Shown here: positions 5,910 through 33,998 of the stretch, in pieces
How positions within the stretch are numbered: position 1 is the stretch's first letter
Layout: each line of letters opens with the position of its first letter
Assembly (NCBI GenBank): GCA_035291665.1
Contig: DATDRP010000001.1
Coordinates: forward strand, 223,127-287,126
Reading direction: 5' to 3'
Length of the DNA: 64,000 nt
DNA from: Patescibacteria group bacterium
GTDB lineage: Bacteria > Patescibacteriota > Microgenomatia > UBA8517
Position numbers and translations under genes: made by a program
Notes under the pieces: model-generated
Told to the model about the DNA's origin: nothing
The model's database searches: none
What the model saw: the letters and a program-made list of their open reading frames with translations, nothing else

Positions 5910-6992
5910 TCATTTTCCCAAAGGTTGGCCTAATTGAACTTTGAAGTAATCCACCCAGGGAATAGGCGTCGGGTCCTGTTCATACTGCATGGAGAGATAA
6001 AAGTCTAAATAAGCTCCGAATTGAATTACTTCAAATGCCTGCGAAAGAAAATTAGCTGATTTTGGTTTAAAAACTTGGAATTCGATATCGTTTTTACGAA
6101 CAACATTTTGAGTAATACTCATTCTTTTTTGTATACGCTCAGGATACAAATCCGATTCGAAAAATATAAATACTACATTTTCTGCGTTTCCAAATGGGTG
6201 AACAAGTCCTTCCATCAAATGGTGGTTAAGCTCAGGGACAGATACATCAAAACATAAATTTTTTGAATTTTCATTTTGCTGGTTATTAACAACGTGGCTT
6301 GCTCCGACAAGATGCTTCGCGGAAACGAATATGACAATTTTATCCTTAATTTTATTGGAAAGTTCAATTGAAGCATTTGAAATCACTACTTCTTTATTAT
6401 TTACCCTTTTCACTTCTTCCATCGCATTGGTAACACTTTTCAAGTCATCATTCGTAAGATCAATTAAACCCGATTTATATGCAAGTACCATTTGACCAAT
6501 CACCGAATAACCAATCGCCATTCTTGGCTGCTGCGAAGTGTTAAATTTGGGATCAATTTGATAATAAGGAACATGATGCTCCTTCGCCATATCAATTAAT
6601 TTACCTCCCTTGGCAACGACCATCCATTTTGCATTTTTCTGAATCGCTTCCCCGGCATTTTGTATTGTTTCTTCGGTTTCACCTGAATAACTTGAGCAAA
6701 TAACCAGAGAGTTTTCGCTGCAGTATGGAGGGAGATTGTAGTCATTGACCCGAACCAATGGACATTTCAATTTATCAAAATATACTGACTCAATTACCCG
6801 GGCGCCGAGTCCCGACCCGCCCATTCCGCACATAATAATATTTTTTATATCTTTATACGATTCAGGGACCTCTACCTTTCCAGCATCTTCCCAGGCATGT
6901 TCAACTTGTTTGGAAAGATCCTCAACCGATGCATATAGATTTTTGGGGTCATTTTTTTTAATCTTTTCGGATAAGTCCATATTGATTGACAT
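5910..6992 (-). CDS. Bifunctional phosphoglucose/phosphomannose isomerase (SIS domain, archaeal-type PGI/PMI)
   Basis: Motifs MCGMGGSGLG and SYSGETEET. 360 aa. Confidence 0.7.
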   Translation of the reverse strand: MSINMDLSEKIKKNDPKNLYASVEDLSKQVEHAWEDAGKVEVPESYKDIKNIIMCGMGGSGLGARVIESVYFDKLKCPLVRVNDYNLPPYCSENSLVICSSYSGETEETIQNAGEAIQKNAKWMVVAKGGKLIDMAKEHHVPYYQIDPKFNTSQQPRMAIGYSVIGQMVLAYKSGLIDLTNDDLKSVTNAMEEVKRVNNKEVVISNASIELSNKIKDKIVIFVSAKHLVGASHVVNNQQNENSKNLCFDVSVPELNHHLMEGLVHPFGNAENVVFIFFESDLYPERIQKRMSITQNVVRKNDIEFQVFKPKSANFLSQAFEVIQFGAYLDFYLSMQYEQDPTPIPWVDYFKVQLGQPLGK

Positions 6993-23105: not shown

Positions 23106-23157
23106 CTCTCCGAGCCGGAGGCTCTCCGAGCCGGAGGCCTTTAAATGAAATAGGCCT
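23106..23157. repeat. Tandem 2x16-bp palindromic repeat (CTCTCCGAGCCGGAGG) plus a flanking AGGCCT-stem hairpin
   Basis: Units at 23106-23121 and 23122-23137, each a CTCCG-agc-CGGAG hairpin. The AGGCCT(n11)AGGCCT stem is at 23135-23157. These are GC-rich islands in AT-rich DNA, 14 nt upstream of the lemA start and overlapping its SD region (GAGAGGTGA on the minus strand). Confidence 0.5.
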
Positions 23158-23171
23158 TCTTGCTTCAGATA

Positions 23172-23420
23172 TTATTGAACCTCAAGCGATTTAATGAAAT
23201 TATACTTTTTATCACTATGGTTTTTCAATTGGTACTCAAACCATCGCGCGTTATTACGGGTTTCAAATGTTTTAAACCCAATCAATTTCAACGGTATTCT
23301 GTTTTTCGTAGAAATCACTTTTCCTTTATTGTGCAGCATTAGTCTTTTATTAATATTTTCTGTTTGACCTATGTAATATTTGTTATCCTTCAAACTTTTT
23401 AATAAATATACATAAAACAT
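23172..23420 (-). CDS. GIY-YIG nuclease superfamily protein (YhbQ/UPF0213-like)
   Basis: FYVYLLKS..DNKYYIGQTENINKRLMLHNKGK. 82 aa. Confidence 0.8.
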   Translation of the reverse strand: MFYVYLLKSLKDNKYYIGQTENINKRLMLHNKGKVISTKNRIPLKLIGFKTFETRNNARWFEYQLKNHSDKKYNFIKSLEVQ

Positions 23421-23436
23421 TTTAATTTGTGAATTT

Positions 23437-25248
23437 TTATTTTAATAGCAAATTTTTTATTTCCTCTAAACTTTTTGCAGTAATAATATTTTTCTTTTCT
23501 GCCCAACCGCGCCTGGCAACGTAGACTGCATACTTCATATTATCCATGTGGTCAGCGTGATGAGCATCAGTACCTGTTGTTAGTAGAATTCCCATTTTCA
23601 CCGCTTCATGAATAAGATAGTCGGGCAAATCCAACCTCATCGGATCAGCATTAATCTCCAGATACTTATGATTTTTAAGACAGAATTTGAATATTAATTC
23701 CCAATCAACGTCTATTCCCTCGCGTTCATTCAACTTCCTTCCTGTCGGATGAGCGAATATTTTAACTTTCGGGTGCGATAAAGCACCGATGACCCTTTTG
23801 GTTGCTTCTTTTTTGGTTTGTTTAAAGCTTGAATGAATTGATACAAGTGCAAAATCCAAAATATCCAAACAAGATTCTGTTATGGGAATATTCCCATCGG
23901 ATAAAATATCTATTTCGAGGCTATTGAATACATATTTTACGCTTTGTTTTTCATCTAATGAGTAATTAACTTTATCAATTATTTCTTTACGTTTTTGAAG
24001 AAGACTCCTTATCTGAGAACTATTATGGCTGCCCATCGAAGGGTTGTGATCAGTTAATGCCAGATATTCGTATCCAAGAAGATTCGCTTTTTTAACTAGT
24101 TCTGTCATAGATGACAACCCCAAATCATGACTAGTTTGAGTATCGAAGTCACTATGAATCTGAAGATCGCCTTTGATGTCGGATAAATTAATGAGGTCTG
24201 GAAGCTTTCCATCAAGCGCAGCTTTTATTTCCCCACTGTCCTCCCTCAACTCTGGCGGAATCCAATCAAGTCCCAGATAATTATAAAAGCCTTCCTCATT
24301 TTCGAATTCTTTCACTTTTTCGCTATTAACTATTTTTATTCCGTATTCGCTTAAACTTAGGCTTGGTTTTAGGCTTCTTGCATATTCACGTAAAGCGATG
24401 TTATGGTGTTTGCTGCCCGTAAAGTGCTGAAGAACCGATCCATATTGACCAGGAGGACAAACCATTAAGTCAACTTGTATGTTCCCCGGAATAATAATTG
24501 AGGCTGTTTTATCCCCTTTTTCCAAAATTCTGGATTTATTTTTATAATTACAGAAATGTCCGATTGTTATTGACGGTTTTGTCGTCGCACAGGCAATGTC
24601 AATGTCTCCCACTGTAGATGCTTTCCTGCGAAGACTACCAAGTGCATCGACTTCCCGAACATTCAAATCTTCTTTCATCCACGAAATAATATTCGAGGCT
24701 ATTTCTTCAGCGTAGTTGAGAAGGTGCCGTTTTTCCCTTGATGAGTACTCTTTGATTGATTTGATGATGCTTTCCTGGGAATCGGCTCCGAATCCCTCAA
24801 GTATTTCGATCTTCCCTTTTTCTGCGGCTTTTAAGAGTTTCGAAACTGCATTGGGGGATTTTATTTCAAGTAAGGTCACAAGTTGATATGCCGTCTTCGG
24901 ACCCACGCCTTCAATCGGTAAAAGTTCAAATACCGCATCGGGTATTCCTTTGAAAAGTTCATCAAAATGTTTTGACTTTCCTGTAGAAAATATTTCTTTA
25001 AGATGTCCGGCAATTGATTTTCCAACTCCCGGAATTTCATCAAGTTTTCCGTCATCATATAAATCCTTTGCTTCAGAGCTCAAATGTTCAACAGCTGTTG
25101 CTGCTCGGTCATATGCAATGATTTGGAACTTGTACTTATTTTTATCCTTAATCTGATATGCAGCCGAAACATCTTCCAATAGATTTGAAAGATCAATATT
25201 GTTAATGTTTTTTGAGATTTTTACCATAATCATATTGTATATCAGCAT
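23437..25248 (-). CDS. polX: Family X DNA polymerase with PHP domain (PolX)
   Basis: HhH motifs and a Pol-beta-like nucleotidyltransferase core (GSLRR..TVGDIDI). C-terminal PHP phosphoesterase (HAHP...TDHN). Confidence 0.85.
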   Translation of the reverse strand: MLIYNMIMVKISKNINNIDLSNLLEDVSAAYQIKDKNKYKFQIIAYDRAATAVEHLSSEAKDLYDDGKLDEIPGVGKSIAGHLKEIFSTGKSKHFDELFKGIPDAVFELLPIEGVGPKTAYQLVTLLEIKSPNAVSKLLKAAEKGKIEILEGFGADSQESIIKSIKEYSSREKRHLLNYAEEIASNIISWMKEDLNVREVDALGSLRRKASTVGDIDIACATTKPSITIGHFCNYKNKSRILEKGDKTASIIIPGNIQVDLMVCPPGQYGSVLQHFTGSKHHNIALREYARSLKPSLSLSEYGIKIVNSEKVKEFENEEGFYNYLGLDWIPPELREDSGEIKAALDGKLPDLINLSDIKGDLQIHSDFDTQTSHDLGLSSMTELVKKANLLGYEYLALTDHNPSMGSHNSSQIRSLLQKRKEIIDKVNYSLDEKQSVKYVFNSLEIDILSDGNIPITESCLDILDFALVSIHSSFKQTKKEATKRVIGALSHPKVKIFAHPTGRKLNEREGIDVDWELIFKFCLKNHKYLEINADPMRLDLPDYLIHEAVKMGILLTTGTDAHHADHMDNMKYAVYVARRGWAEKKNIITAKSLEEIKNLLLK

Positions 25249-25303: not shown

Positions 25304-25654
25304 ATGGCAGCACGTCCGGAGAATGATCAATATTCAACTACAATAAATTGGAAAAGCAACAAACAGGAAATATTGGGTCGAAAAGGTCCGGCAAACGATA
25401 GTGAATTTGGTGGTATAGTGATAAACCCGGGAAATGATTTGCAAATAAGAATTGAGGCTGACACTTTGATTTTAACCTCAAATCGAACAACCATATTCTT
25501 AAATTTTCCGGAATCTGTACAAAACACTCTTCAGAAAATGACCCCCACACCAAAATCATTGCTCAAGGTTCAGGGATATTTCATGCAATCAGACCTTCCG
25601 GAAGAAATTAAAAATGCTGTCATTGAGATGTTCAACGTCTTTGATAATATTTGA
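25304..25654 (+). CDS. Hypothetical protein
   Basis: 116-aa ORF with no recognisable motif. Confidence 0.3.
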   Translation: MAARPENDQYSTTINWKSNKQEILGRKGPANDSEFGGIVINPGNDLQIRIEADTLILTSNRTTIFLNFPESVQNTLQKMTPTPKSLLKVQGYFMQSDLPEEIKNAVIEMFNVFDNI

Positions 25655-25735
25655 GAGTTTTCGAGTCTCGAAACAGAAAAAATTTATTCCCGAAGTTATC
25701 TTGACCAAGGGGGCTTCATATAGTTAAATTAGCAC

Positions 25736-26056
25736 ATGGCACTTACAAAGACAGATATAGACAGGATAGATAAAAGATTTAATAGACGCTTGAAAAAACA
25801 AAAAGTAGAAATTCTTACTAAACTGGATTCGCAAAAAGAAGATATTCTGTTACGTATGGATTCACAAAAAGAAGATATTCTTGAAGAGATGGATAACAAA
25901 CTACAACACCTCAAAGGCGACTTTTTTGAGAGAATCGACCCGATACTTAAAGAAGTAATGACAGCAAGAGAAGAAAGACCTTTAATTGAAAATCGGCTTG
26001 AAATTTTAGAAAAAATTCATCCCAAAGGAAAACACATTTTATCATCCCAAACTTAA
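25736..26056 (+). CDS. Hypothetical coiled-coil protein with an internal tandem repeat
   Basis: 106 aa. The L(D/M)DSQKEDIL repeat is encoded by the 33-bp DNA tandem repeat. Confidence 0.35.
   Translation: MALTKTDIDRIDKRFNRRLKKQKVEILTKLDSQKEDILLRMDSQKEDILEEMDNKLQHLKGDFFERIDPILKEVMTAREERPLIENRLEILEKIHPKGKHILSSQT
25825..25890 (+). repeat. 33-bp tandem repeat (2 units) within a CDS
   Basis: GGATTCGCAAAAAGAAGATATTCTGTTACGTAT / GGATTCACAAAAAGAAGATATTCTTGAAGAGAT. Confidence 0.6.
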
Positions 26057-26066
26057 GCATATTAAG

Positions 26067-26100
26067 CTGAGTTTACGGATTCGACAATCCGATAGGTTGA
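26067..26100. repeat. Direct repeat copy A (degenerate tRNA-Asp 3'-end-like, att-like)
   Basis: ACGGATTCGACAATCCGATAGGTTGAATCG. About 30 nt shared with copy B at 27085-27117. Confidence 0.5.
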
Positions 26101-26226
26101 ATCGGAATACCAGAGGAACTGCGAACATACTGGACAGGCATTAGTATTCGAACTTCGAACTTTGTGGCATAAAATAAGTACTTTTGAGATTGGGAAAATC
26201 CAACAATTCCTCAATCCACAGTCTGC

Positions 26227-26967
26227 TTATTCTTTATCAGCTATTTGACTACTTTTCTTGTATCGAAGCCAAACACTACCTTTTGCCATTCGTTTTACAT
26301 CAGTCAAAAAGTAATCAGTAACATCTAGCGGTTCTTCAACTTTTCGTTCAAATAATGAAGGGGCGTTGCTTCTGTTTACAACTTTAGGAGTCATGAGGAG
26401 GCTGATTTCATCAATCATGTCAGCAGCCATGACTGATCCGTTTAGAAGTCCACCTCCTTCAAGCAGAAGAGTTTCCACATTCATTTTCTCTCTCATTGAA
26501 GCAAATAGTTTTGGAAAATCAATGTCTTCTTCTCCCGCAACCAAATAAGATATTTCCTTATCTTGCAAAGACTGGAGATATTCTTTTGGTGTAGCTTCTG
26601 TGACAACTATTACTAAGTGTAAAGGGTCGGCAACGTTTGAGAGTTTTATTGAGTTTTTTTCCCAGCGAAGCAATCCCTTTGTGTCGACCCCAAACATATA
26701 CAAGTTACCTTCGTGTTGAGCAATGAAGTCGGATGTGTCAATTTGTTGAGATGCAGTGGATAAGGGTTGTGCTTCACTACTTGCAAACATTTGCATTGTA
26801 ACTCTGCCACACATCCAAGCGGTATGGGAAGGAAGCATGTCTTCGGTTTCTGTGTATAGCCCAAAAAACTCATCGCTCATGATATCTACACCGTTTCCAC
26901 CAGTTATCTTTCCATCAATGGTGCTCATCATGTGACAAATGATATACGGTCTTTCTGCATTAGCCAT
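26227..26967 (-). CDS. Dihydrofolate reductase-family protein (RibD C-terminal domain)
   Basis: N-terminal IICHMMSTIDGKITG and C-terminal LLLEGGGLLNGSVMAADMIDEISLLMTPKV are RibD_C/DHFR-like. 246 aa. Confidence 0.65.
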   Translation of the reverse strand: MANAERPYIICHMMSTIDGKITGGNGVDIMSDEFFGLYTETEDMLPSHTAWMCGRVTMQMFASSEAQPLSTASQQIDTSDFIAQHEGNLYMFGVDTKGLLRWEKNSIKLSNVADPLHLVIVVTEATPKEYLQSLQDKEISYLVAGEEDIDFPKLFASMREKMNVETLLLEGGGLLNGSVMAADMIDEISLLMTPKVVNRSNAPSLFERKVEEPLDVTDYFLTDVKRMAKGSVWLRYKKSSQIADKE

Positions 26968-27075
26968 ATTGGAATTATATCAAGAAATAGCCGTTAAAGT
27001 CTCGTCCAAGTCTTTGGTTTATGAAGACAAAATGATGAGTGTTGATGCAGAGTTCAATGATGGCTAAACTAAGGT

Positions 27076-27117
27076 TTGCAGGGCTGACGGGATTCGACAA
27101 TCCGATAGGTTGAATCG
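27076..27117. repeat. Direct repeat copy B: 17-nt exact match to the tRNA-Asp 3' end plus a 30-nt match to copy A
   Basis: GGGCTGACGGGATTCGA at 27080-27096 is identical to tRNA-Asp positions 29270-29286. The following CAATCCGATAGGTTGAATCG is shared with copy A. Confidence 0.6.
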
Positions 27118-27223
27118 AAAGGCCGGCATGGAAGAACTGTAAAAGTATTAAGAGGGTTTGGAATATAAAATACGGAGCATCCCTTCAATAAAGTCAAAAG
27201 ATAACTAAGTCTCTTTCGGCACA

Positions 27224-27739
27224 CTACTCACCACCCACTTCTGTGATAATAGTCTTGAGCTTATTTCGTACGTCCTGATTGTATTTACCTGCTCTGCCAT
27301 CCTTGTTTATCTCAATTTCTAGCCCGGGAATGTTAAGTTTTTCAAGATGTTCGACAATAGTTATCTGGTCATTATCCCTGAAACCGGCTACAATTTCAGT
27401 GCTCAAAAGTTTGCCATATTCACGATAAAAGTATTCATTTGGATAATACTCCATCAAATTTCCTGAGTCCTTTCGTCCGTGGATATCGAAAACTACCTTA
27501 ATATTCTCTTTTTTTAGAATGCTATCGATTTTTTTACGAAACGGGGAATCTGTATACCAATTGGGGTCCTTCTGAATCTTTGTTGATACTAAAGCCCAAC
27601 ACTTTGTGGATTTAGCGAGCTTTCTTGCAATTTGACCTGTTCCAATATCACCTAGTTTTAAATTACCAGATCTTATTTGGGAATAAGCATGAGATGCAAT
27701 TAACAATACGGGTGTAGTACCTTTAATTAAATCCCACAT
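27224..27739 (-). CDS. Hypothetical protein, possibly N-formylglutamate amidohydrolase / succinylglutamate desuccinylase-like fold
   Basis: 171 aa. LLIASHAYSQ...GDIGTG...VFDIHGRK resembles the metal-site motifs of that fold. Weak. Confidence 0.4.
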   Translation of the reverse strand: MWDLIKGTTPVLLIASHAYSQIRSGNLKLGDIGTGQIARKLAKSTKCWALVSTKIQKDPNWYTDSPFRKKIDSILKKENIKVVFDIHGRKDSGNLMEYYPNEYFYREYGKLLSTEIVAGFRDNDQITIVEHLEKLNIPGLEIEINKDGRAGKYNQDVRNKLKTIITEVGGE

Positions 27740-27859
27740 TATATTGAGTATATCAATAATTCCGGTTATTTCAGGTAATAAACTAACCTAACATCAAATA
27801 CAGTAACTTTTATTCGTAAAATTATTTACAAAATCATCTTTGAGTGGGAAAATACTTTC

Positions 27860-28396
27860 GTGGTGGAACAAAAAACGAAAACAACAGATCCGCAAGGAGA
27901 GCTACTCACGCAGGTTAATGAGTATAATCAGGTAATAGGAAGTATAAGTAGGGGTGAAGCTCACGAAAAAAAAGGAGTTTTTTACCGGACAATTTATGTT
28001 TTGGTAAAAAACGATCAAGATCAAGTTCTTATTCAAAAAAGAAGTTCAACTAAAGATTTGTATCCAGACTGTTGGGACTTATCGGTTGGGGGGCATGTAA
28101 ATTTTGGTCAAAGCTACGAAGCAACGGCAGTAAGAGAACTAGAAGAAGAATTAGGCTTACATGTTTCAGAAGAAGACCTAATAACAAAAGGTAAGGTTTT
28201 AGTTAGACTTCCAAGTTCGGGTGAATACTTCAATGTTTTTGAATACAACCTAAAACCGAACGAGACTATCGCTGCTTCCGAAGAAGAAATTGGAGATACA
28301 AAATGGTTGACAATTGAAGAAATTAAGAACTCGATGAAAGATAAACCAATGAAATGGTATCCAAGACCGGAACAGACCATTGCTGCTTTATATTAA
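27860..28396 (+). CDS. NUDIX hydrolase
   Basis: Nudix box GGHVNFGQSYEATAVRELEEELGL. Confidence 0.8.
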   Translation: MVEQKTKTTDPQGELLTQVNEYNQVIGSISRGEAHEKKGVFYRTIYVLVKNDQDQVLIQKRSSTKDLYPDCWDLSVGGHVNFGQSYEATAVRELEEELGLHVSEEDLITKGKVLVRLPSSGEYFNVFEYNLKPNETIAASEEEIGDTKWLTIEEIKNSMKDKPMKWYPRPEQTIAALY

Positions 28397-28556
28397 ATTC
28401 CACCATTGACCCTAAAATCGTATTCAGAAGATCTAGTCTCGTTAAGTGTAAATAGTTTTTCGAAGCTAAAATTTTCTACCGGCTCTGGTTAACTATCTCC
28501 GGAACTTATATTTAACCTATCCATAACCGATTTATGTATAATCGAATTGATATTTT

Positions 28557-29000
28557 ATGGATATTGTAACAGAAACAATTAAACTTGGTTTCCCACTTGG
28601 TAGTTATGTAGTAATAGGAAGTGGTCATATTGTTGCTTTAGGACTTAAAGATGGACACGACATAGACATATTGGTTAAGAAAACGTTATTTGATAAATGT
28701 AAAAATGAGGGGTGGGAAGTTAAGAAGTGGACATACCCAGAAATGTTAGGCAAAATTTATTTAAGAAAAGGAATTTATGAACTCTATTTGGAGGCGAAAA
28801 TTGACGATTTCAAACCCACTACGGATGATTTAATTCAAAGAGCAGTGTTAATCGGTGGTGTCCCATTTGCTTCTCTCGAAGACATTCTTAAACTAAAAAG
28901 AGGTTATTTGAAGAATAATCCTAAACACTTAAAAGATATTGAGATAATTGAAAGATATTTGGCCTCAAAGAGTTCTACATCCCGTAAAGACTATGTTTAA
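28557..29000 (+). CDS. Hypothetical protein, possible minimal nucleotidyltransferase fold
   Basis: GSYVVIGSG...DGHDIDILV resembles the Pol-beta-superfamily GS...D.D motif. Weak. Confidence 0.35.
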   Translation: MDIVTETIKLGFPLGSYVVIGSGHIVALGLKDGHDIDILVKKTLFDKCKNEGWEVKKWTYPEMLGKIYLRKGIYELYLEAKIDDFKPTTDDLIQRAVLIGGVPFASLEDILKLKRGYLKNNPKHLKDIEIIERYLASKSSTSRKDYV

Positions 29001-29232
29001 GCATTGCTTTTAATCTCCTCCACCCCGCTGTTGTCTTGAAATACTTTTCACACTCAACAGCATCCTTTTTGGACTTAAAAGAGGAATAATAAATTAATTC
29101 ATACGGAATATGAAGCTTAGTTGCTTTATTTTCACCTTTGTTATGACTGATAATTCTTTTCTTTAAATCGGGCGTATAACCCAAATATAGTTTTTTATCT
29201 TTTAGGCTTTGAAGAATGTAGAAGTAAAACAT
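28975..29232 (-). CDS. GIY-YIG nuclease superfamily protein (YhbQ/UPF0213-like), second paralog
   Basis: FYFYILQS..DKKLYLGYTPDLKKRIISHNKGE. 85 aa, immediately downstream of tRNA-Asp. Confidence 0.8.
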   Translation of the reverse strand: MFYFYILQSLKDKKLYLGYTPDLKKRIISHNKGENKATKLHIPYELIYYSSFKSKKDAVECEKYFKTTAGWRRLKAMLKHSLYGM

Positions 29233-29266
29233 CTAGGCGGGCTACGTTCAGTTTACATGAACGTAG

Positions 29267-29340
29267 CGGGGCTGACGGGATTCGAACCCGCGACCTCTTC
29301 CGTGACAGGGAAGCACTCTGGCCAGTTGAGCTACAGCCCC
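29267..29340 (-). tRNA. tRNA-Asp (anticodon GTC)
   Basis: Folded manually: acceptor GGGGCUG/CAGCCCC, anticodon stem CUUCC/GGAAG with loop CUGUCAC, T-loop TTCGAAT. 74 nt, CCA not encoded. A 10-bp stem hairpin at 29241-29267 abuts the 3' end. Confidence 0.85.
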
Positions 29341-29470
29341 AAACTTAAATCGCAGAAGAATTATAGCTGATCTATGAAATCTGGACAATAGACGATGTGT
29401 TTCAGATGTTTTACAAATCTCATTTTCAAATTTTATTGATTTTAAATACTCACTATGCCAGTATTAAATA

Positions 29471-30010
29471 TTGGGAAGTATTAATAGAACGGGGGTGATC
29501 TATTTGAAAAATATATTTATTGTTTCGGCAGTATTGGTATTTTTTGCTCTTCTTGCCCTATCTTTGAGACCAACTACAAAAGTTGCCGGAGTCTCGGATT
29601 CAAATGGTATGCCTCTGTATGTGATTATTGAAGTTAACTGGGACGGAACAGGCATGGGTGACTGGAAAGTTTGGGGTCCCAAAAATGAACCGGTTGTCGG
29701 TACAGGTACAGTTTTGTCCGAATGTACGGAATGTCTTGAGATGAACTATAATTTTGAATTCAAGGGAAAGACGGTTCAGTTTAATGAAACTTATGTTTCT
29801 ACTGTTGACGGAAAACCTCAATCCCATAAAGTTGTCTTGACAGACACAGACGGTGATGGATCTTATACAGGATCATTACCAGCAGCCAGATATAATTTAC
29901 AGGAAGGATATATCTATTTGGACAGGATTGATTATGAGGCTGAATTTGGTAATGGAAAAGTGTCATCATTCAGATATTTTGAGTACGAGCATAAGAAATT
30001 ACTTAAGTAG
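29471..30010 (+). CDS. Secreted or membrane-anchored hypothetical protein
   Basis: N-terminal signal/anchor IFIVSAVLVFFALLALS. 179 aa. Confidence 0.45.
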   Translation: MGSINRTGVIYLKNIFIVSAVLVFFALLALSLRPTTKVAGVSDSNGMPLYVIIEVNWDGTGMGDWKVWGPKNEPVVGTGTVLSECTECLEMNYNFEFKGKTVQFNETYVSTVDGKPQSHKVVLTDTDGDGSYTGSLPAARYNLQEGYIYLDRIDYEAEFGNGKVSSFRYFEYEHKKLLK

Positions 30011-30114
30011 TCACGCTATACCTTAATTTTCAGCGAATTTAAATTCGGTATAACGAATCAATCCTCTGGATAATCGGATAGAGTAAGTGTCTAATGGAGA
30101 AGTGGAAATAATAT

Positions 30115-30714
30115 TTAGTCCTCTTGTGTGTAAATGACGCTTTTACAATATTGAACACCCTTTTCCCACCAACCTCGAATCAATACTCCCACGACCTTAC
30201 CCTCTTTAGTAAGCAACGGAGAACCCGAACAGCCAGGATAAGCTGTCTGTATTTCTTCAGATCCTATATGGTCTACTGTATTTTCATAGCTCCTGTTTAT
30301 TGTTTTTCGTGGATGTGTTTCCAAAGAAAGGCAACCCACATGTGTAGGTTTAACTTCGACTCGGGCACGCTCCCAACCGTTATAAGTTGAATAAATTATT
30401 TCTAAATTTTCACCACTTAAAAGATCATTATCTGATCCATGTTCAAGACCGTCACGATTTATTTCCGGGAGTTCAGATTCAGCAATGTCCTTCCATCCTT
30501 TTTTTTGAAATTGAAGGTTTACAATTGTGCTTGATCCATCATGGGCTTTTGCTTTAAGATTTCTTTGATCAGTGCCTTCAAAAGCAACATGAGCCGCAGT
30601 CGTTAAAACTGTTCTTCCATTTCGTTTGACCCTAAAACCGTTACCTAAAAATCTCTCATTACCATCTTCTCCGACATCATAAAGTTCAAATAAATGTTGT
30701 TCTAACTCTGACAT
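30115..30714 (-). CDS. Trypsin-like serine peptidase (S1 family), no signal peptide
   Basis: His motif LTTAAHV. Ser motif GCSGSPLL, the GDSGGP equivalent. 199 aa. Apparently cytoplasmic. Confidence 0.6.
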   Translation of the reverse strand: MSELEQHLFELYDVGEDGNERFLGNGFRVKRNGRTVLTTAAHVAFEGTDQRNLKAKAHDGSSTIVNLQFQKKGWKDIAESELPEINRDGLEHGSDNDLLSGENLEIIYSTYNGWERARVEVKPTHVGCLSLETHPRKTINRSYENTVDHIGSEEIQTAYPGCSGSPLLTKEGKVVGVLIRGWWEKGVQYCKSVIYTQED

Positions 30715-30780
30715 AATATAGATATTATATTACTATTATAGGTTAAATTCAAAAATGAACAGAGGCATATTCCGTCAGTT

Positions 30781-31221
30781 TTAATAATTCATTACCGATT
30801 TATAATCAGGATTAAGTCTTGGCCAGTATTTTTGAGGCAGATCGATTGTCTCAAAACCCTTTTTTCTTGCAATTCTTTCAATTCTTTTGCTGGGTACAAA
30901 CTTCAAGCAATGAACACCAGCCAGTGCTTGCATTGTCAATGAGCTGATCACCGTATCACATTGTTCACAAGACAAGGGTAAATATAAGCTATCGTTTTCT
31001 ACAATTCTACCTGAACAGGCTGATTTTGGATTTCCTCTTTGAAATACAGTGAATCCACTACTCAAATCTTCATGTTTAAAAGGTCTTATATCAAAATTTA
31101 TCCCGCTTGCCGCTTCTCCCATGAATTCATTGTGCGTAAGAGTGCAGCTGCCATCATTCTTACAATACTGACAATATGGAAAATATCCTCCTTTAATCTC
31201 ATTGCTCTTTTCAACGTTCAT
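30781..31221 (-). CDS. Cys-rich hypothetical protein
   Basis: CQYCKNDGSC near the N-terminus plus a CEQC pair. 146 aa. Its N-terminus is paralogous to the divergent neighbour. Confidence 0.4.
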   Translation of the reverse strand: MNVEKSNEIKGGYFPYCQYCKNDGSCTLTHNEFMGEAASGINFDIRPFKHEDLSSGFTVFQRGNPKSACSGRIVENDSLYLPLSCEQCDTVISSLTMQALAGVHCLKFVPSKRIERIARKKGFETIDLPQKYWPRLNPDYKSVMNY

Positions 31222-31418
31222 AGAAATTAAAACGAATTATATATCTAATTTTAAATGAGTATAAAGTTTTTTACTTTAAGTTTAGTATTTTTGCGGATTG
31301 TACTTGGTAAATTACGATGGTAATCTTGTGAAAGACACAATCAACAATAAGTGATTCGATTCCGACATCTCTCTTAACTTTCCACCCGTACGATTAGTCA
31401 ATTTTTTTATAGATCGAA

Positions 31419-31736
31419 ATGGCCAATGTAGAGAAACAAAGATGTGCTTTTAGTAAAAATGGTGATTGTCTGGCTGAATCAGCAAAACAATATATCAAAA
31501 AAATAGATGAAACTTTTCTCATATCCGGGATCGATCCTGTCAAATCCGGTGTTGAGCCAGAAATATTGGAAAAATACGAACCGGTTTTCAGGAGCCTGTA
31601 TTACGATACTACAGTTGCTACCGGTTTTAAGATAAGAGTTTACTTTTGTGAAGGCTGTGATAATTTCCCGAGCGATGGGAATGATTACTTCTCAAAAATC
31701 AAAAATTCGGGTGAAGCTCCAAGAGACTCCAAATGA
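31419..31736 (+). CDS. Cys-motif hypothetical protein, N-terminal paralog of 30781..31221
   Basis: MANVEKQRCAFSKNGDC versus MNVEKSNE..CQYCKNDGSC. Also CEGC. The 3' end overlaps the convergent FNR-like gene, so the true stop or length is uncertain. Confidence 0.35.
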   Translation: MANVEKQRCAFSKNGDCLAESAKQYIKKIDETFLISGIDPVKSGVEPEILEKYEPVFRSLYYDTTVATGFKIRVYFCEGCDNFPSDGNDYFSKIKNSGEAPRDSK

Positions 31737-32359
31737 CCTCTAATTTCTTTTACAAAGGGTTTCGGACCGCAGACATAAAAATGTTTCGAATAATCGTTGA
31801 TATGTTTTGATAAGAAATTACTGTCAATTCTTCCGTTTTCATAGTTTTCACGCTTTTCTCTTGTTAAAGTCAGGATCAAATTCTGAGGACTTTTTTTGAA
31901 CACATCTTTCCATTCATCTTCAAGAATCACATCGGATGAAGTCTTATTTGAAAAAATAAGTTTGTTATTCCCCAGAAGTCCCCTGCTTCGAAGCATCCGG
32001 AGAATTGCGATAAATGGGGTTACTCCCGCACCACCTGCAATAAACACTCCTTCTCCATCATAATGAATTGCTCCAAACGGTTTTGTGATTAACAATTCCG
32101 AACCGTTATCCAAAGCATGTATCCTTTTTGTGATACCTTGATGGTCATCATATCTTTTTATTGTAAATTCAAGGTCCTCGGCGCTTTCCAAACTTGTAAA
32201 AGTAAAGGGTCTGGTTTCGTCTTTGAGGTCTGGGGTATTAATAGACATGTCTATTGCTTGTCCTGGTGTGTAAGTGAAGCTGGAAGGTTTTTCAATAATA
32301 AATCTCTTTACGTCATGGGTTAACTGAACTGAATCGATAAGCTTTACTTTATAGCTCAT
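31685..32359 (-). CDS. Ferredoxin-NADP reductase-like FAD/NAD(P)-binding oxidoreductase
   Basis: FAD-binding RPFTFTS (RxYS-type) and NAD-binding GGAGVTP. 224 aa. Confidence 0.7.
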   Translation of the reverse strand: MSYKVKLIDSVQLTHDVKRFIIEKPSSFTYTPGQAIDMSINTPDLKDETRPFTFTSLESAEDLEFTIKRYDDHQGITKRIHALDNGSELLITKPFGAIHYDGEGVFIAGGAGVTPFIAILRMLRSRGLLGNNKLIFSNKTSSDVILEDEWKDVFKKSPQNLILTLTREKRENYENGRIDSNFLSKHINDYSKHFYVCGPKPFVKEIRGHLESLGASPEFLIFEK

Positions 32360-32439
32360 TATTCATATATTACATTTATAATCGAATTTGTGTCAAAAAG
32401 AAGTGAAAGTTTTTTATAGACCGAATCACTATTGACAAA

Positions 32440-32458
32440 TTTATACTCATAGTATAAA
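32440..32458. promoter_or_regulatory. Perfect 8-bp inverted repeat TTTATACT-cat-AGTATAAA overlapping the putative promoter of the LysM gene
   Basis: TTGACA at 32432-32437. The palindrome arms overlap the -10 TATAAA at 32453-32458. Confidence 0.35.
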
Positions 32459-32495
32459 TTTGCACTCAACAAATGGTCTTGCCCGAAATTAATCA

Positions 32496-33205: not shown

Positions 33206-33276
33206 GCGGGATTAGTTAAGCGGCCTAACGCTACCTTCCCAAGGTAGAGAAACGGGTTCAACTCCCGTATCCCGCT
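33206..33276 (+). tRNA. tRNA-Gly (anticodon CCC)
   Basis: Folded manually: acceptor GCGGGAT/ATCCCGC, D-stem GTTA/TAAC, anticodon stem CTACC/GGTAG with loop TTCCCAA, T-arm ACGGG-TTCAACT-CCCGT. 71 nt. Confidence 0.7.
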
Positions 33277-33360
33277 CTCGTTGCACTCGATCGGGGTACT
33301 TACGTTTATGATGCAATTTAAAGTCTTGCAGGTTATGCTTACAACTCCCGTATCCCGCTC
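33258..33360 (+). repeat. Duplicated tRNA-Gly 3' end (19 bp, CAACTCCCGTATCCCGCTC), second copy 66 bp downstream
   Basis: Exact copies at 33258-33276 and 33342-33360. Confidence 0.7.
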
Positions 33361-33998
33361 CAATCAACAGTTTTCTACATAAATGTACAGAAAGTTACTA
33401 GAAACTACCTAAAAACGATCATAAAATGAGTTATAATTGAATTATGCAAATACTTGTTTTTCTTGGATTTCTTATGCTCATAGTTCTTTCTTTGAAAGGT
33501 AAACTATGGGCTTATATTGCCACCATTGTTTTAGGTTCATTGTATTTTCCTGCCAGTGTCGGTTTTCAGTTGAATATTAAAACTTGTGAGGTATTTTTCG
33601 ACCTGCCGCTTGCGATATATTCTTTGACTAATTATAAGCACATCATATTGTTTGCTATATTTTTTCTAATGACAAGAAGGCAAGTCAAGAAGAGTGGTTG
33701 GGTAAGTTTTGGCTGGGGAGCTTTAGGAACACTACTATTTGCTCTAATAATAGAACTTTTACAGGGGTGGACCGGAGATGGTCATTGTCGCATGAGAGAT
33801 CTTGTTCCAGACTTCGCTGGCGTTCTACTGGGACAAATGACGTATAGTTTATGGACGACCATTAAACGTACAAAACAGCGAAGGATTTAATACCCATATG
33901 TTCTTTAAGAAAACTAAGCTAGAGTTCCAAACTAGGCTCTATAAGAGGTCTTAGGTTCGAGCAAAGCATGGTGACCAGTTCTCGTTGCACTCGATCGG
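33277..33998 (+). repeat. 20-bp direct repeats (TCTCGTTGCACTCGATCGGG) bracketing the VanZ-like gene
   Basis: Copy 1 abuts the tRNA-Gly 3' end at 33277-33296. Copy 2 is at 33979-33998. Confidence 0.7.
33444..33890 (+). CDS. VanZ-like family membrane protein
   Basis: Four transmembrane helices. IELLQGWTGDGHCRMRDLVPDFAGVLLG is the VanZ-like signature. Confidence 0.6.
   Translation: MQILVFLGFLMLIVLSLKGKLWAYIATIVLGSLYFPASVGFQLNIKTCEVFFDLPLAIYSLTNYKHIILFAIFFLMTRRQVKKSGWVSFGWGALGTLLFALIIELLQGWTGDGHCRMRDLVPDFAGVLLGQMTYSLWTTIKRTKQRRI

What the first reader, a model, noticed from the sequence alone, without database searches (positions are those of the whole stretch)
26060..29340. tRNA-Asp followed by two degenerate direct repeats of its 3' end delimiting two integrase-less gene cassettes
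The 17-mer GGGCTGACGGGATTCGA, which spans the T-loop 3' half to the acceptor stem of tRNA-Asp, recurs exactly at 27080-27096. The sequence continuing from it (CAATCCGATAGGTTGAATCG) recurs with the same partial tRNA end at 26067-26100. This is the footprint of successive site-specific integrations at a tRNA 3' end, giving attL, attR and an older attR. Cassette 1 (27118-29266) carries an FGase-like hydrolase, a NUDIX hydrolase, a nucleotidyltransferase-like protein and a YhbQ-like GIY-YIG nuclease. Cassette 2 (26101-27075) carries a RibD-C/DHFR-like reductase. No integrase remains, which suggests decayed islets or cassette-type shuffling of small accessory genes.
Basis: seen in the sequence. Interest (0 to 1): 0.6.

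Follow-up and report, generated by a model that had tools for sequence, protein, structure and literature searches.

The report
Decayed integration scars beside tRNA-Asp
In a tiny-genome groundwater bacterium (Candidatus Woesebacteria), the stretch after a tRNA-Asp gene holds small foreign-looking gene packets bounded by leftover copies of the tRNA's tail, the ordinary footprint of mobile DNA inserting into tRNA genes, here with no insertion enzyme gene in the 64-kb window.

Summary
tRNA-Asp(GTC) lies at 29266-29340 on the minus strand. Its last 20 nt, from the T-loop to 2 nt past the acceptor stem, recur at 27078-27097 (19/20; an exact 17-mer at 27081-27097), in direct orientation on the tRNA's 3' side. 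A sharply bounded 31-mer that overlaps this copy recurs at 26077-26107 (30/31). Neither repeat occurs elsewhere in the 64 kb.

Relatives (PolX 57-64% identical) keep rigid flanking synteny. Their tRNA-Asp-to-PolX slot holds 0, 1 or 2 unrelated genes, against 7 here. The RibD_C gene between the two 31-mers looks horizontally acquired: 79-87% identical homologs exist, against 64% for PolX. In three other genomes it sits downstream of tRNA-Trp on the same strand, once beside a pseudo-tRNA fragment.

The same kind of scar occurs at this window's tRNA-Gly (19-nt repeat, 64-nt insert). In all, 7 of 22 tRNA genes in related loci carry one, against 1 of 64 controls.

No integrase was found in the window, and there was no phage or defence signal. 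All same-species contigs are identical.

Best reading: decayed, tandemly accreted islets at a tRNA integration hotspot. This is a new member of a known kind, of modest interest.

The parts
29266..29340 (-). tRNA-Asp(GTC), intact. Its 3' 20 nt (29266-29285 on the + strand) form site A, the attL-like identity block.
   Evidence: ARAGORN. Rfam RF00005, 69.5 bits. A sigma-70-like promoter lies upstream at 29388-29360.
27078..27120 (-). Site B, an attR-like site. 27078-27097 is a 19/20 copy of the tRNA-Asp T-loop-to-3'-end block. 27098-27120 is unrelated sequence 'X'. 27090-27120 is the 31-mer shared with site C.
   Evidence: Similarity to the tRNA ends abruptly in the T-loop: X matches the tRNA body at 6/20, which is random (read).
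26067..26107 (-). Site C. 26077-26107 matches site B at 30/31. 26067-26076 is a degenerate remnant that aligns only with gaps.
26108..27077 (-). Islet 1, the RibD_C cassette. It comprises the promoter region 26968-27032, the RibD_C / DHFR-like reductase gene 26227-26967, and a conserved ~87-nt non-coding element at 26129-26215.
   Evidence: Pfam RibD_C E=2e-18. Homologs at 79-87% identity, against 64% for PolX. Nucleotide homology to L020 spans window 27032-26136. The 87-nt element flanks the gene on both sides in L020.
27121..29265 (.). Islet 2. Genes: a 171-aa zinc-hydrolase-fold protein (27224-27739, -), NUDIX (27860-28396, +), a 147-aa minimal nucleotidyltransferase-like protein (28557-29000, +), and an 85-aa GIY-YIG nuclease domain (28975-29232, -).
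   Evidence: None of these genes except GIY-YIG has a homolog in the relatives' loci.
25304..26056 (+). Two lineage-specific ORFs (116 aa and 106 aa) between site C and PolX. Both are absent from the same interval in all relatives.
23437..25248 (-). PolX (family X DNA polymerase with a PHP domain). This is the conserved flank that directly follows tRNA-Asp in relative L007.
33206..33360 (+). A second scar of the same type. tRNA-Gly(CCC) lies at 33206-33277. A 64-nt insert follows, then an exact 19-nt copy of the tRNA's T-loop-to-3'-end block at 33342-33360.

Best explanation
The 4-kb interval between the 3' end of tRNA-Asp and PolX is an insertion hotspot. Integrative elements recombined with the T-loop/acceptor region of the tRNA gene. 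Each insertion regenerated the tRNA from the element's own copy and pushed the previous 3' end downstream.

Site B (27078-27120) is such a displaced fragment joined to element sequence X. It marks the far end of a 2.2-kb islet carrying the hydrolase-fold protein, NUDIX, the nucleotidyltransferase-like protein and GIY-YIG.

The 1.0-kb RibD_C cassette beyond it is bounded by a second copy of the same 31-nt junction (site C). It was added by a second recombination at the same type of site, that is, by tandem accretion. The recombination modules have since been deleted, or the recombinase acts from elsewhere in the genome, leaving integrase-less islets.

Shown: the repeats, their polarity and sharp limits; the lineage-specific content of the slot; the horizontal-transfer signature of RibD_C and its recurrent position after tRNA genes; the recurrence of such scars at other tRNA genes.

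Inferred: that a tyrosine-type integrase made them, the order of the two events, and the loss of the integrase.
For: 1. Anatomy. The A/B block runs from the T-loop to discriminator+1, in direct orientation, on the 3' side, with an abrupt boundary. This is the principle used by Islander, where a regenerated tRNA gene plus its displaced 3' fragment marks island ends. In that survey 3760 of 3919 islands had 3' fragments, 1836 had T-stem-region sites, and 125 were tandem arrays (PMC4383910).

2. Comparative data. The flank PolX-LemA-M48-GatCAB-DnaE is rigidly syntenic in relatives. The slot between tRNA-Asp and PolX holds nothing in L007, one NUDIX in L009 and L014, a GIY-YIG in L011, a GNAT plus a 180-aa gene in L012, and 7 genes here. 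The NUDIX genes are not orthologous to one another.

3. Independent scars at the same slot. L012 has a 15/17 tRNA-Asp fragment 108 nt before PolX (16/22 in the scan; 1 of 300 shuffles reached it). L009 has a homologous fragment with different cargo. L013 has a 20/24 fragment 97 nt downstream of its tRNA-Asp.

4. The RibD_C cassette. It has 79-87% identical homologs, against 64% for PolX. Homologs at about 54-58% identity come from records named as other phyla. In L017, L020 and L021 it lies downstream of tRNA-Trp on the same strand, and in L017 it sits directly after a mosaic pseudo-tRNA-Trp.

5. Generality. 7 of 22 tRNA genes have a match of at least 16/22 to their 3' end within 3 kb downstream on the same strand, against 1 of 64 controls (Fisher p=2e-4). 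This includes the window's own tRNA-Gly, whose block has the same limits.

6. A mobilisable element beside a tRNA in a relative. In L012 a relaxase plus coupling-protein element lies downstream of tRNA-Gly, behind a Fic islet bounded by a tRNA-Gly fragment.
Against: - No integrase or recombinase domain was found in any ORF of at least 120 aa in the 64-kb window.
- There is no GC anomaly.
- No donor element or second copy of the junction was found in viral or metagenome collections. The source genome itself is not in the collection that was scanned.
- No presence/absence polymorphism was seen. All same-species contigs are identical, and no relative closer than 64% PolX identity exists.
- Site C's tRNA-derived part is degenerate while its X part is perfect. 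A simple 'older attR' does not predict this.
- A GIY-YIG gene also follows tRNA-Asp directly in L011, so that gene might be resident rather than cargo.
- The 171-aa gene's 56% homolog sits next to a LysM gene in L036, hinting at local ancestry.
Confidence: 0.62

Rival explanations
1. There was only one tRNA integration, giving the A/B pair. The 31-nt B/C repeat arose separately, either when a RibD_C-bearing circle or fragment recombined with the pre-existing junction B, or by a local duplication. [quoted passage not shown]
For: B and C are identical only over a sharply bounded 31 nt, and the flanks are not significantly similar. C keeps just 8 contiguous tRNA bases, while its non-tRNA part is perfect. 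The cassette's nucleotide homology to L020 stops inside the repeats, at window 27032-26136.
Against: A simple target duplication would leave the complete tRNA-derived block on the outer copy (C), not on the inner copy (B) (read). The mechanism would still be recombination at an att-like junction, so this differs from the main explanation only in the order of events.
Confidence: 0.2
2. The repeats are not recombination scars. They are remnants of a partial tRNA-Asp duplication, or a short regulatory or terminator motif placed after minus-strand genes. The variable gene content simply reflects the large divergence from the available relatives.
For: Both repeat copies lie about 105-120 nt downstream of minus-strand stop codons. 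The relatives are distant, at 57-64% PolX identity. There is no integrase and no GC anomaly.
Against: - There is no significant RNA fold (z between -0.3 and -1.7), no terminator-like site and no Rfam hit at the repeats.
- Similarity to the tRNA ends abruptly rather than decaying.
- Only two copies exist in 64 kb.
- The flanking genes are perfectly syntenic in the same relatives, and only the tRNA-adjacent slots vary.
- The polarity bias across 22 tRNA genes (7 against 1 of 64) is not expected from duplication or chance.
Confidence: 0.1
3. An active, integrase-poor cassette-exchange system. Small non-autonomous cassettes carry a tRNA-tail mimic. They are captured and swapped at tRNA T-loop sites by a recombinase encoded elsewhere, or with help from the small GIY-YIG nucleases scattered beside tRNA genes.
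For: Different cargo sits between a conserved tRNA/fragment pair in L009 and L012. Very short inserts (61-97 nt) are flanked by tRNA-tail repeats at three tRNA genes. GIY-YIG genes lie next to tRNA-Asp here and in L011 and next to tRNA-Gly in L014, and one is inserted into the otherwise invariant PolX-LemA junction.
Against: No recombinase was identified, no excision products or polymorphism were seen, and no shared cassette-end motif exists across cassettes. The 85-aa GIY-YIG lacks any DNA-binding domain. Plain decay of ordinary islands explains the same data.
Confidence: 0.08

Closest known systems
tRNA-gene-integrated genomic islands, as mapped by Islander (T-stem/T-loop class, including tandem arrays)
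   Same: An intact tRNA gene sits at one end. A displaced 3' fragment lies in direct orientation at the other end. The identity block starts in the T-loop and ends just past the tRNA. There is a second junction in tandem, and the content is absent from relatives.
   Different: There is no integrase in either islet or anywhere in the 64-kb window, and Islander requires one per island. The islets are only 1.0 and 2.2 kb. There is no compositional anomaly. The host is a Candidatus Woesebacteria (CPR) genome.
CIMEs (cis-mobilisable elements) and tandem accretion of ICESt1/ICESt3-type elements in Streptococcus thermophilus (Pavlovic 2004 and Bellanger 2011, as listed in the references of PMC5812530; the content of those papers is from my own knowledge)
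   Same: The elements are flanked by att sites, have lost their recombination and transfer modules, and lie in tandem at one attachment site. L012 shows a comparable arrangement at tRNA-Gly: a Fic islet followed by a relaxase/coupling-protein element.
   Different: No related integrase-bearing partner was found for this locus. Cis-mobilisation is untested. The target here is a tRNA gene, not fda.
Genomic islets (under 10 kb, tRNA-adjacent, flanked by direct repeats)
   Same: The size, the position next to a tRNA, the direct repeats, and cargo made of small accessory enzymes.
   Different: The term is descriptive only and implies no mechanism.
Integron cassette arrays and CALINs (attC clusters lacking an integrase)
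   Same: Small promoter-plus-gene or single-gene units, each followed by a repeat, with no integrase nearby.
   Different: The repeat is 31 nt, not a 57-141-nt imperfect palindrome. It has no significant single-strand fold. It derives from a tRNA tail. Only two copies exist, and genes lie on both strands.

Membership tests
tRNA-integrated genomic island (Islander criteria) | An intact target tRNA gene at one end | tested here: met
   tRNA-Asp at 29266-29340, 69.5 bits, full length.
tRNA-integrated genomic island (Islander criteria) | A displaced fragment of the same tRNA gene, in direct orientation, on the side matching the fragment type (3') | tested here: met
   27078-27097 is a 19/20 match on the same strand, 2.2 kb beyond the 3' end. 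For site C the result is inconclusive: 8 contiguous bases plus gapped remnants.
tRNA-integrated genomic island (Islander criteria) | [quoted passage not shown] | tested here: met
   The block runs from T-loop position ~55 to discriminator+1. The tRNA-Gly scar at 33342-33360 has the same limits.
tRNA-integrated genomic island (Islander criteria) | An integrase gene inside the island | tested here: not met
   No Phage_integrase, Resolvase or Recombinase hit in any ORF of at least 120 aa in the window, nor in the precomputed Pfam table of L001.
tRNA-integrated genomic island (Islander criteria) | Island absent from related genomes (an empty site exists) | tested here: inconclusive
   In L007, tRNA-Asp lies 40 nt from PolX. 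The other relatives carry different cargo. All of these are distant (57-64% PolX identity). Same-species contigs are identical.
CIME / tandem accretion | att sites related to those of an integrase-bearing element that uses the same target | tested here: inconclusive
   The junction 28-mer and 22-mer are absent from the viral and metagenome collections, but the source genome is itself missing from the metagenome collection.
CIME / tandem accretion | Excision or mobilisation when an integrase is supplied | not testable with these tools
   This needs read-level junction analysis or an experiment.
Integron cassette / CALIN | attC sites: 57-141-nt imperfect palindromes with R''-L''/L'-R' boxes that fold as single strands | tested here: not met
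   The repeat is 31 nt. Folds of 81-nt windows on both strands give z between -0.3 and -1.7. The flanks are not conserved.
Interspersed repeat (REP / MITE) | Many copies dispersed in the genome, unrelated to the tRNA | tested here: not met
   Only the two copies in 64 kb, even at 5-9 mismatches. The rest of the genome could not be read.
Decayed tRNA gene duplicate | Patchy similarity along the whole tRNA length | tested here: not met
   Similarity stops abruptly in the T-loop. The next 20 nt match the tRNA body at 6/20 (read). No Rfam or ARAGORN hit at sites B or C.

The most novel reading that the evidence does not exclude
In CPR bacteria, tRNA genes may serve as standing docking sites for very small, non-autonomous cassettes (here 1-2 kb; elsewhere inserts of only 61-97 nt). 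These would be swapped by a recombinase encoded elsewhere in the genome or on a transient element. That would make a tRNA-anchored analogue of integron cassette exchange and a main route of gene turnover in these streamlined genomes. Two observations fit this reading. Two lineages (L009 and L012) share a tRNA/fragment pair but carry different cargo. One third of the sampled tRNA genes carry scars.
Probability: 0.1. Interest if true: 0.7.

Novelty: new member of a known kind. Interest (0 to 1): 0.35.

Why it matters
Mobile DNA and routes of gene gain are poorly documented in Candidate Phyla Radiation bacteria, whose genomes are very small and uncultured. This locus shows the classical tRNA-targeted integration footprint in a Woesebacteria genome. 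It contains at least one clearly transferred gene (RibD_C). Similar scars appear at about a third of the tRNA genes sampled in related loci, none with an integrase among the genes examined nearby (for loci brought in by the DNA scans this was not checked). If that holds genome-wide, tRNA-adjacent slots are the main places where these streamlined genomes exchange small accessory genes, and the inserted elements decay quickly. For annotation, it warns that integrase-dependent island finders will miss such islets.

Tried and rejected
- **Structured RNA, terminator or known RNA family at the repeats.** Rfam at E up to 5 gives only the tRNA itself. Folds are not better than shuffles. No terminator-like site lies at B or C.
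- **Longer homology around B and C.** Local alignments of the 60-nt flanks are no better than shuffles. I consider an 11-mer, CCCAAACTTAA, shared between the left of C and the 5' edge of the tRNA to be chance, because it is in the wrong order for a pseudogene.
- **Integron attC reading.** RYYYAAC- and GTTRRRY-like heptamers lie only 10 nt apart, which is too short, and there is no fold.
- **Donor element search.** The 28-mer is absent from viral contigs and the 22-mer from metagenome contigs. RibD_C, the 171-aa and the 147-aa proteins have no relatives in viral contigs. Phage and plasmid hits to RibD_C are at most 35% identical and uninformative.
- **Defence or phage association.** PADLOC gives only a generic NUDIX hit. 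PHROGs gives only generic NUDIX hits and one weak family of unknown function.
- **Conserved RNA structure in the ~87-nt element after RibD_C.** None was found.
- **Structure of the 171-aa protein.** The single-sequence model failed (pLDDT 40). A 3-sequence alignment gave a usable model (pLDDT 74).
- **Profile search of the 147-aa family against solved structures.** Nothing significant.
- **Similarity between the trailer after site B and native tRNA-Asp trailers of relatives.** Only a TTTAGCC heptamer is shared with L012, which is too weak to use.


Full report
**Source and setting**

The window comes from a Rifle aquifer metagenome contig (JGI 3300002503, 106 kb). Named homologs of its PolX protein come from Candidatus Woesebacteria, in Patescibacteria/CPR. 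The window has 33-44% GC, with no compositional step at the locus.

**The observation**

- tRNA-Asp(GTC) lies at 29266-29340 on the minus strand.
- On the plus strand its 3' end reads GCGGGGCTGACGGGATTCGA (29266-29285). The same 20 nt recur with one mismatch at 27078-27097.
- In tRNA terms the block begins in the T-loop (T55) and ends at the discriminator plus one base.
- The copy is on the same strand as the tRNA and lies on its 3' side.
- Similarity stops abruptly. The next 20 nt (CAATCCGATAGGTTGAATCG, called 'X' here) match the tRNA body at chance level.
- A 31-mer made of the last 8 tRNA-derived bases plus X (27090-27120) recurs at 26077-26107 with one mismatch. Beyond it the flanks are unrelated.
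- Left of the third copy, the tRNA-derived part aligns only with two indels.
- Neither repeat has other copies in the 64 kb, even at 6-9 mismatches.

I call the three sites A (in the tRNA), B (27078-27120) and C (26067-26107).

**Genes in the interval**

- Between C and B: a RibD_C / DHFR-like reductase (26227-26967, minus strand).
- Between B and A, four genes:
  - A 171-aa protein with only three homologs among 5.8 billion proteins. Its model (pLDDT 74) best matches poly-gamma-glutamate hydrolases and the N-formylglutamate-amidohydrolase-family protein Atu2144.
  - A NUDIX hydrolase closest to IDI/YfcD-type models but below their cut-offs.
  - A 147-aa protein of a 653-member family with the GSG...DxD motif of minimal nucleotidyltransferases. 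Three of 40 sampled members are fused to NUDIX domains, which suggests the adjacent NUDIX and this gene work together.
  - An 85-aa GIY-YIG domain protein starting 34 nt after the tRNA.
- There is no phage or defence signal.
- No integrase or other recombinase domain occurs in any ORF of at least 120 aa in the window.

**Comparison with relatives**

The nearest non-self PolX is only 64% identical, so only distant relatives are available. In all of them the flank PolX-LemA-M48-GatC-GatA-(MFS)-GatB-DnaE is conserved. On the other side, LysM, tRNA-Gly, tRNA-Thr, a Big-domain protein and Wzy are conserved.

Contents of the tRNA-Asp-to-PolX slot:

| Locus | Contents |
|---|---|
| L007 | nothing (40 nt between tRNA-Asp and PolX) |
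| L009 | one NUDIX |
| L014 | one NUDIX |
| L011 | one GIY-YIG |
| L012 | a GNAT acetyltransferase plus a 180-aa gene |
| this window | seven genes |

- In L013 the tRNA is inverted, with a NUDIX on its 3' side.
- The NUDIX genes share only the Nudix box, so they are not orthologs.
- None of the window's 116-aa, 106-aa, RibD_C, 171-aa, NUDIX or 147-aa proteins has a homolog in those loci.
- The contigs L009, L011 and the same-species contig L002 all break inside tRNA-Asp.
- Same-species contigs from several samples are 100% identical, so they give no polymorphism information.

**Independent scars at the same slot and at other tRNA genes**

- L012 has a 15/17 copy of its tRNA-Asp tail 108 nt before PolX, bounding its two-gene islet. 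The match is 16/22 in the scan, and 1 of 300 shuffles reached it.
- L009 has a homologous fragment with the same lead sequence (AGTTCnAGATAAG) but different cargo.
- L013 has a 20/24 copy 97 nt after its tRNA-Asp.
- In the window itself, the last 19 nt of tRNA-Gly (33206-33277), from the T-loop to discriminator+1, recur exactly at 33342-33360 after a 64-nt insert.
- L017 has a mosaic pseudo-tRNA-Trp 5 nt after tRNA-Trp. L021 has a 13-nt tRNA-Trp tail repeat around a 61-nt GC-rich insert. L012's tRNA-Gly has a 17/22 fragment 1.3 kb downstream, bounding a Fic gene. Behind that fragment lie a relaxase and a coupling protein.
- Across 22 non-redundant tRNA genes, 7 have a match of at least 16/22 to their tail within 3 kb downstream on the same strand. 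Upstream and inverted controls give 1 of 64 (Fisher p=2e-4).
- The sample of loci is small and was not drawn at random.

**The RibD_C cassette**

- Its protein has homologs at 87, 83, 80 and 79% identity, far above the 64% ceiling for PolX. Homologs near 54-58% identity come from records named Cerribacteria and Weeksellaceae.
- Its neighbours differ in every genome examined.
- In L017, L020 and L021 the gene lies downstream of tRNA-Trp on the same strand, at 95 nt, 745 nt and 1.4 kb respectively.
- Nucleotide homology between the window and L020 (78%) covers the promoter, the gene and an ~87-nt non-coding element (window 27032-26136). It stops short of sites B and C.
- In L020 that element flanks the gene on both sides.
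- The element has no conserved fold. Its conserved end (ACTAATGCCTGC) loosely resembles a tRNA-Trp tail, but that is only an impression.

**Interpretation**

A and B have the standard form of a regenerated tRNA gene and its displaced 3' fragment (PMC4383910). The slot is a hotspot in this clade, and at least the RibD_C unit is acquired DNA.

The B/C pair shows that a second recombination happened at the same junction sequence. Whether C was ever the tRNA's own tail, and which event came first, cannot be decided.

The absence of an integrase, the small size of the islets and the lack of a compositional signal fit decay in a deletion-biased small genome. They equally fit mobilisation by a recombinase encoded elsewhere. 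I could not read the rest of the genome.

The closest described situation is tandem accretion and decay into att-flanked, integrase-less elements (CIMEs).

Readings as an integron, an interspersed repeat, an RNA motif or a tRNA pseudogene were tested and not supported.

**Verdict**

This is a real and correctly described feature, and an ordinary mechanism in an under-studied lineage. The point most worth following up is the high frequency of tRNA-tail scars without integrase genes among the nearby genes examined, some enclosing only 61-97 nt.

Noticed in passing
window 33206-33360: tRNA-Gly(CCC) is followed by a 64-nt insert and then an exact 19-nt copy of its T-loop-to-3'-end block (33342-33360). 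The block limits match the tRNA-Asp repeat. The gene after it (VanZ-like, 33444-33890) is absent from that position in L007.
   Followed up: partly
L012:8256-10001, L009:1-719, L013:9690-9930: Other Woesebacteria carry tRNA-Asp tail fragments just upstream of PolX, or about 97 nt after the tRNA. L009 and L012 share a homologous fragment (AGTTCnAGATAAG-ACCC..CCCCGC) but hold different genes between the tRNA and the fragment.
   Followed up: partly
L012:1-7320: Downstream of tRNA-Gly lies a Fic gene bounded by a 17/22 tRNA-Gly fragment (~5918-5950). After it come a DUF87/TrwB-like coupling protein, a Replic_Relax relaxase, DUF2958 and another Fic protein. This looks like a mobilisable integrative element in tandem with a small islet. 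No integrase lies within the 10 kb that was fetched.
   Followed up: no
L017:2798-2929; L021:2593-2741: L017 has a mosaic pseudo-tRNA-Trp 5 nt after tRNA-Trp: two 19-nt identity blocks, with the middle replaced by the hairpin CCCGCCGTGGCGGG. It sits directly before the RibD_C promoter. L021 has a 13-nt tRNA-Trp tail repeat around a 61-nt GC-rich insert.
   Followed up: partly
window 26129-26215; L020:1256-1342 and ~2185-2269; L017:3718-3742: A conserved ~87-nt non-coding element follows RibD_C in three genomes and flanks the gene on both sides in L020. It has no conserved fold and no Rfam match. Its role is unknown.
   Followed up: partly
window 23172-23420: A second small GIY-YIG gene (82 aa, 47% identical to the one beside tRNA-Asp) is inserted between PolX and LemA. 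That junction is uninterrupted in all relatives. Similar small GIY-YIG genes sit after tRNA-Asp in L011 and at tRNA-Gly in L014, a sporadic distribution that suggests selfish mobility.
   Followed up: partly
window 27860-29000: The NUDIX gene and the 147-aa nucleotidyltransferase-like gene are adjacent. 3 of 40 sampled homologs of the 147-aa protein are fused to NUDIX domains, and others to nucleotide or shikimate kinase-type domains. This suggests a two-gene nucleotide-metabolism module.
   Followed up: partly
window 29341-32495: The 5' side of tRNA-Asp is also lineage-specific. It holds a 179-aa protein, a trypsin-like peptidase, 146-aa and 105-aa ORFs and an FAD/NAD oxidoreductase, all lying between tRNA-Asp and the conserved LysM gene. 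Of these, only the oxidoreductase has a weak homolog in a relative, 23% identical, in L014.
   Followed up: no
window 25824-25889 and 23110-23150: There is a 33-nt tandem repeat inside the 106-aa ORF, encoding a repeated DSQKEDIL motif. A tandem GCCTCCGGCTCGGAGAG repeat lies after the second GIY-YIG gene.
   Followed up: no
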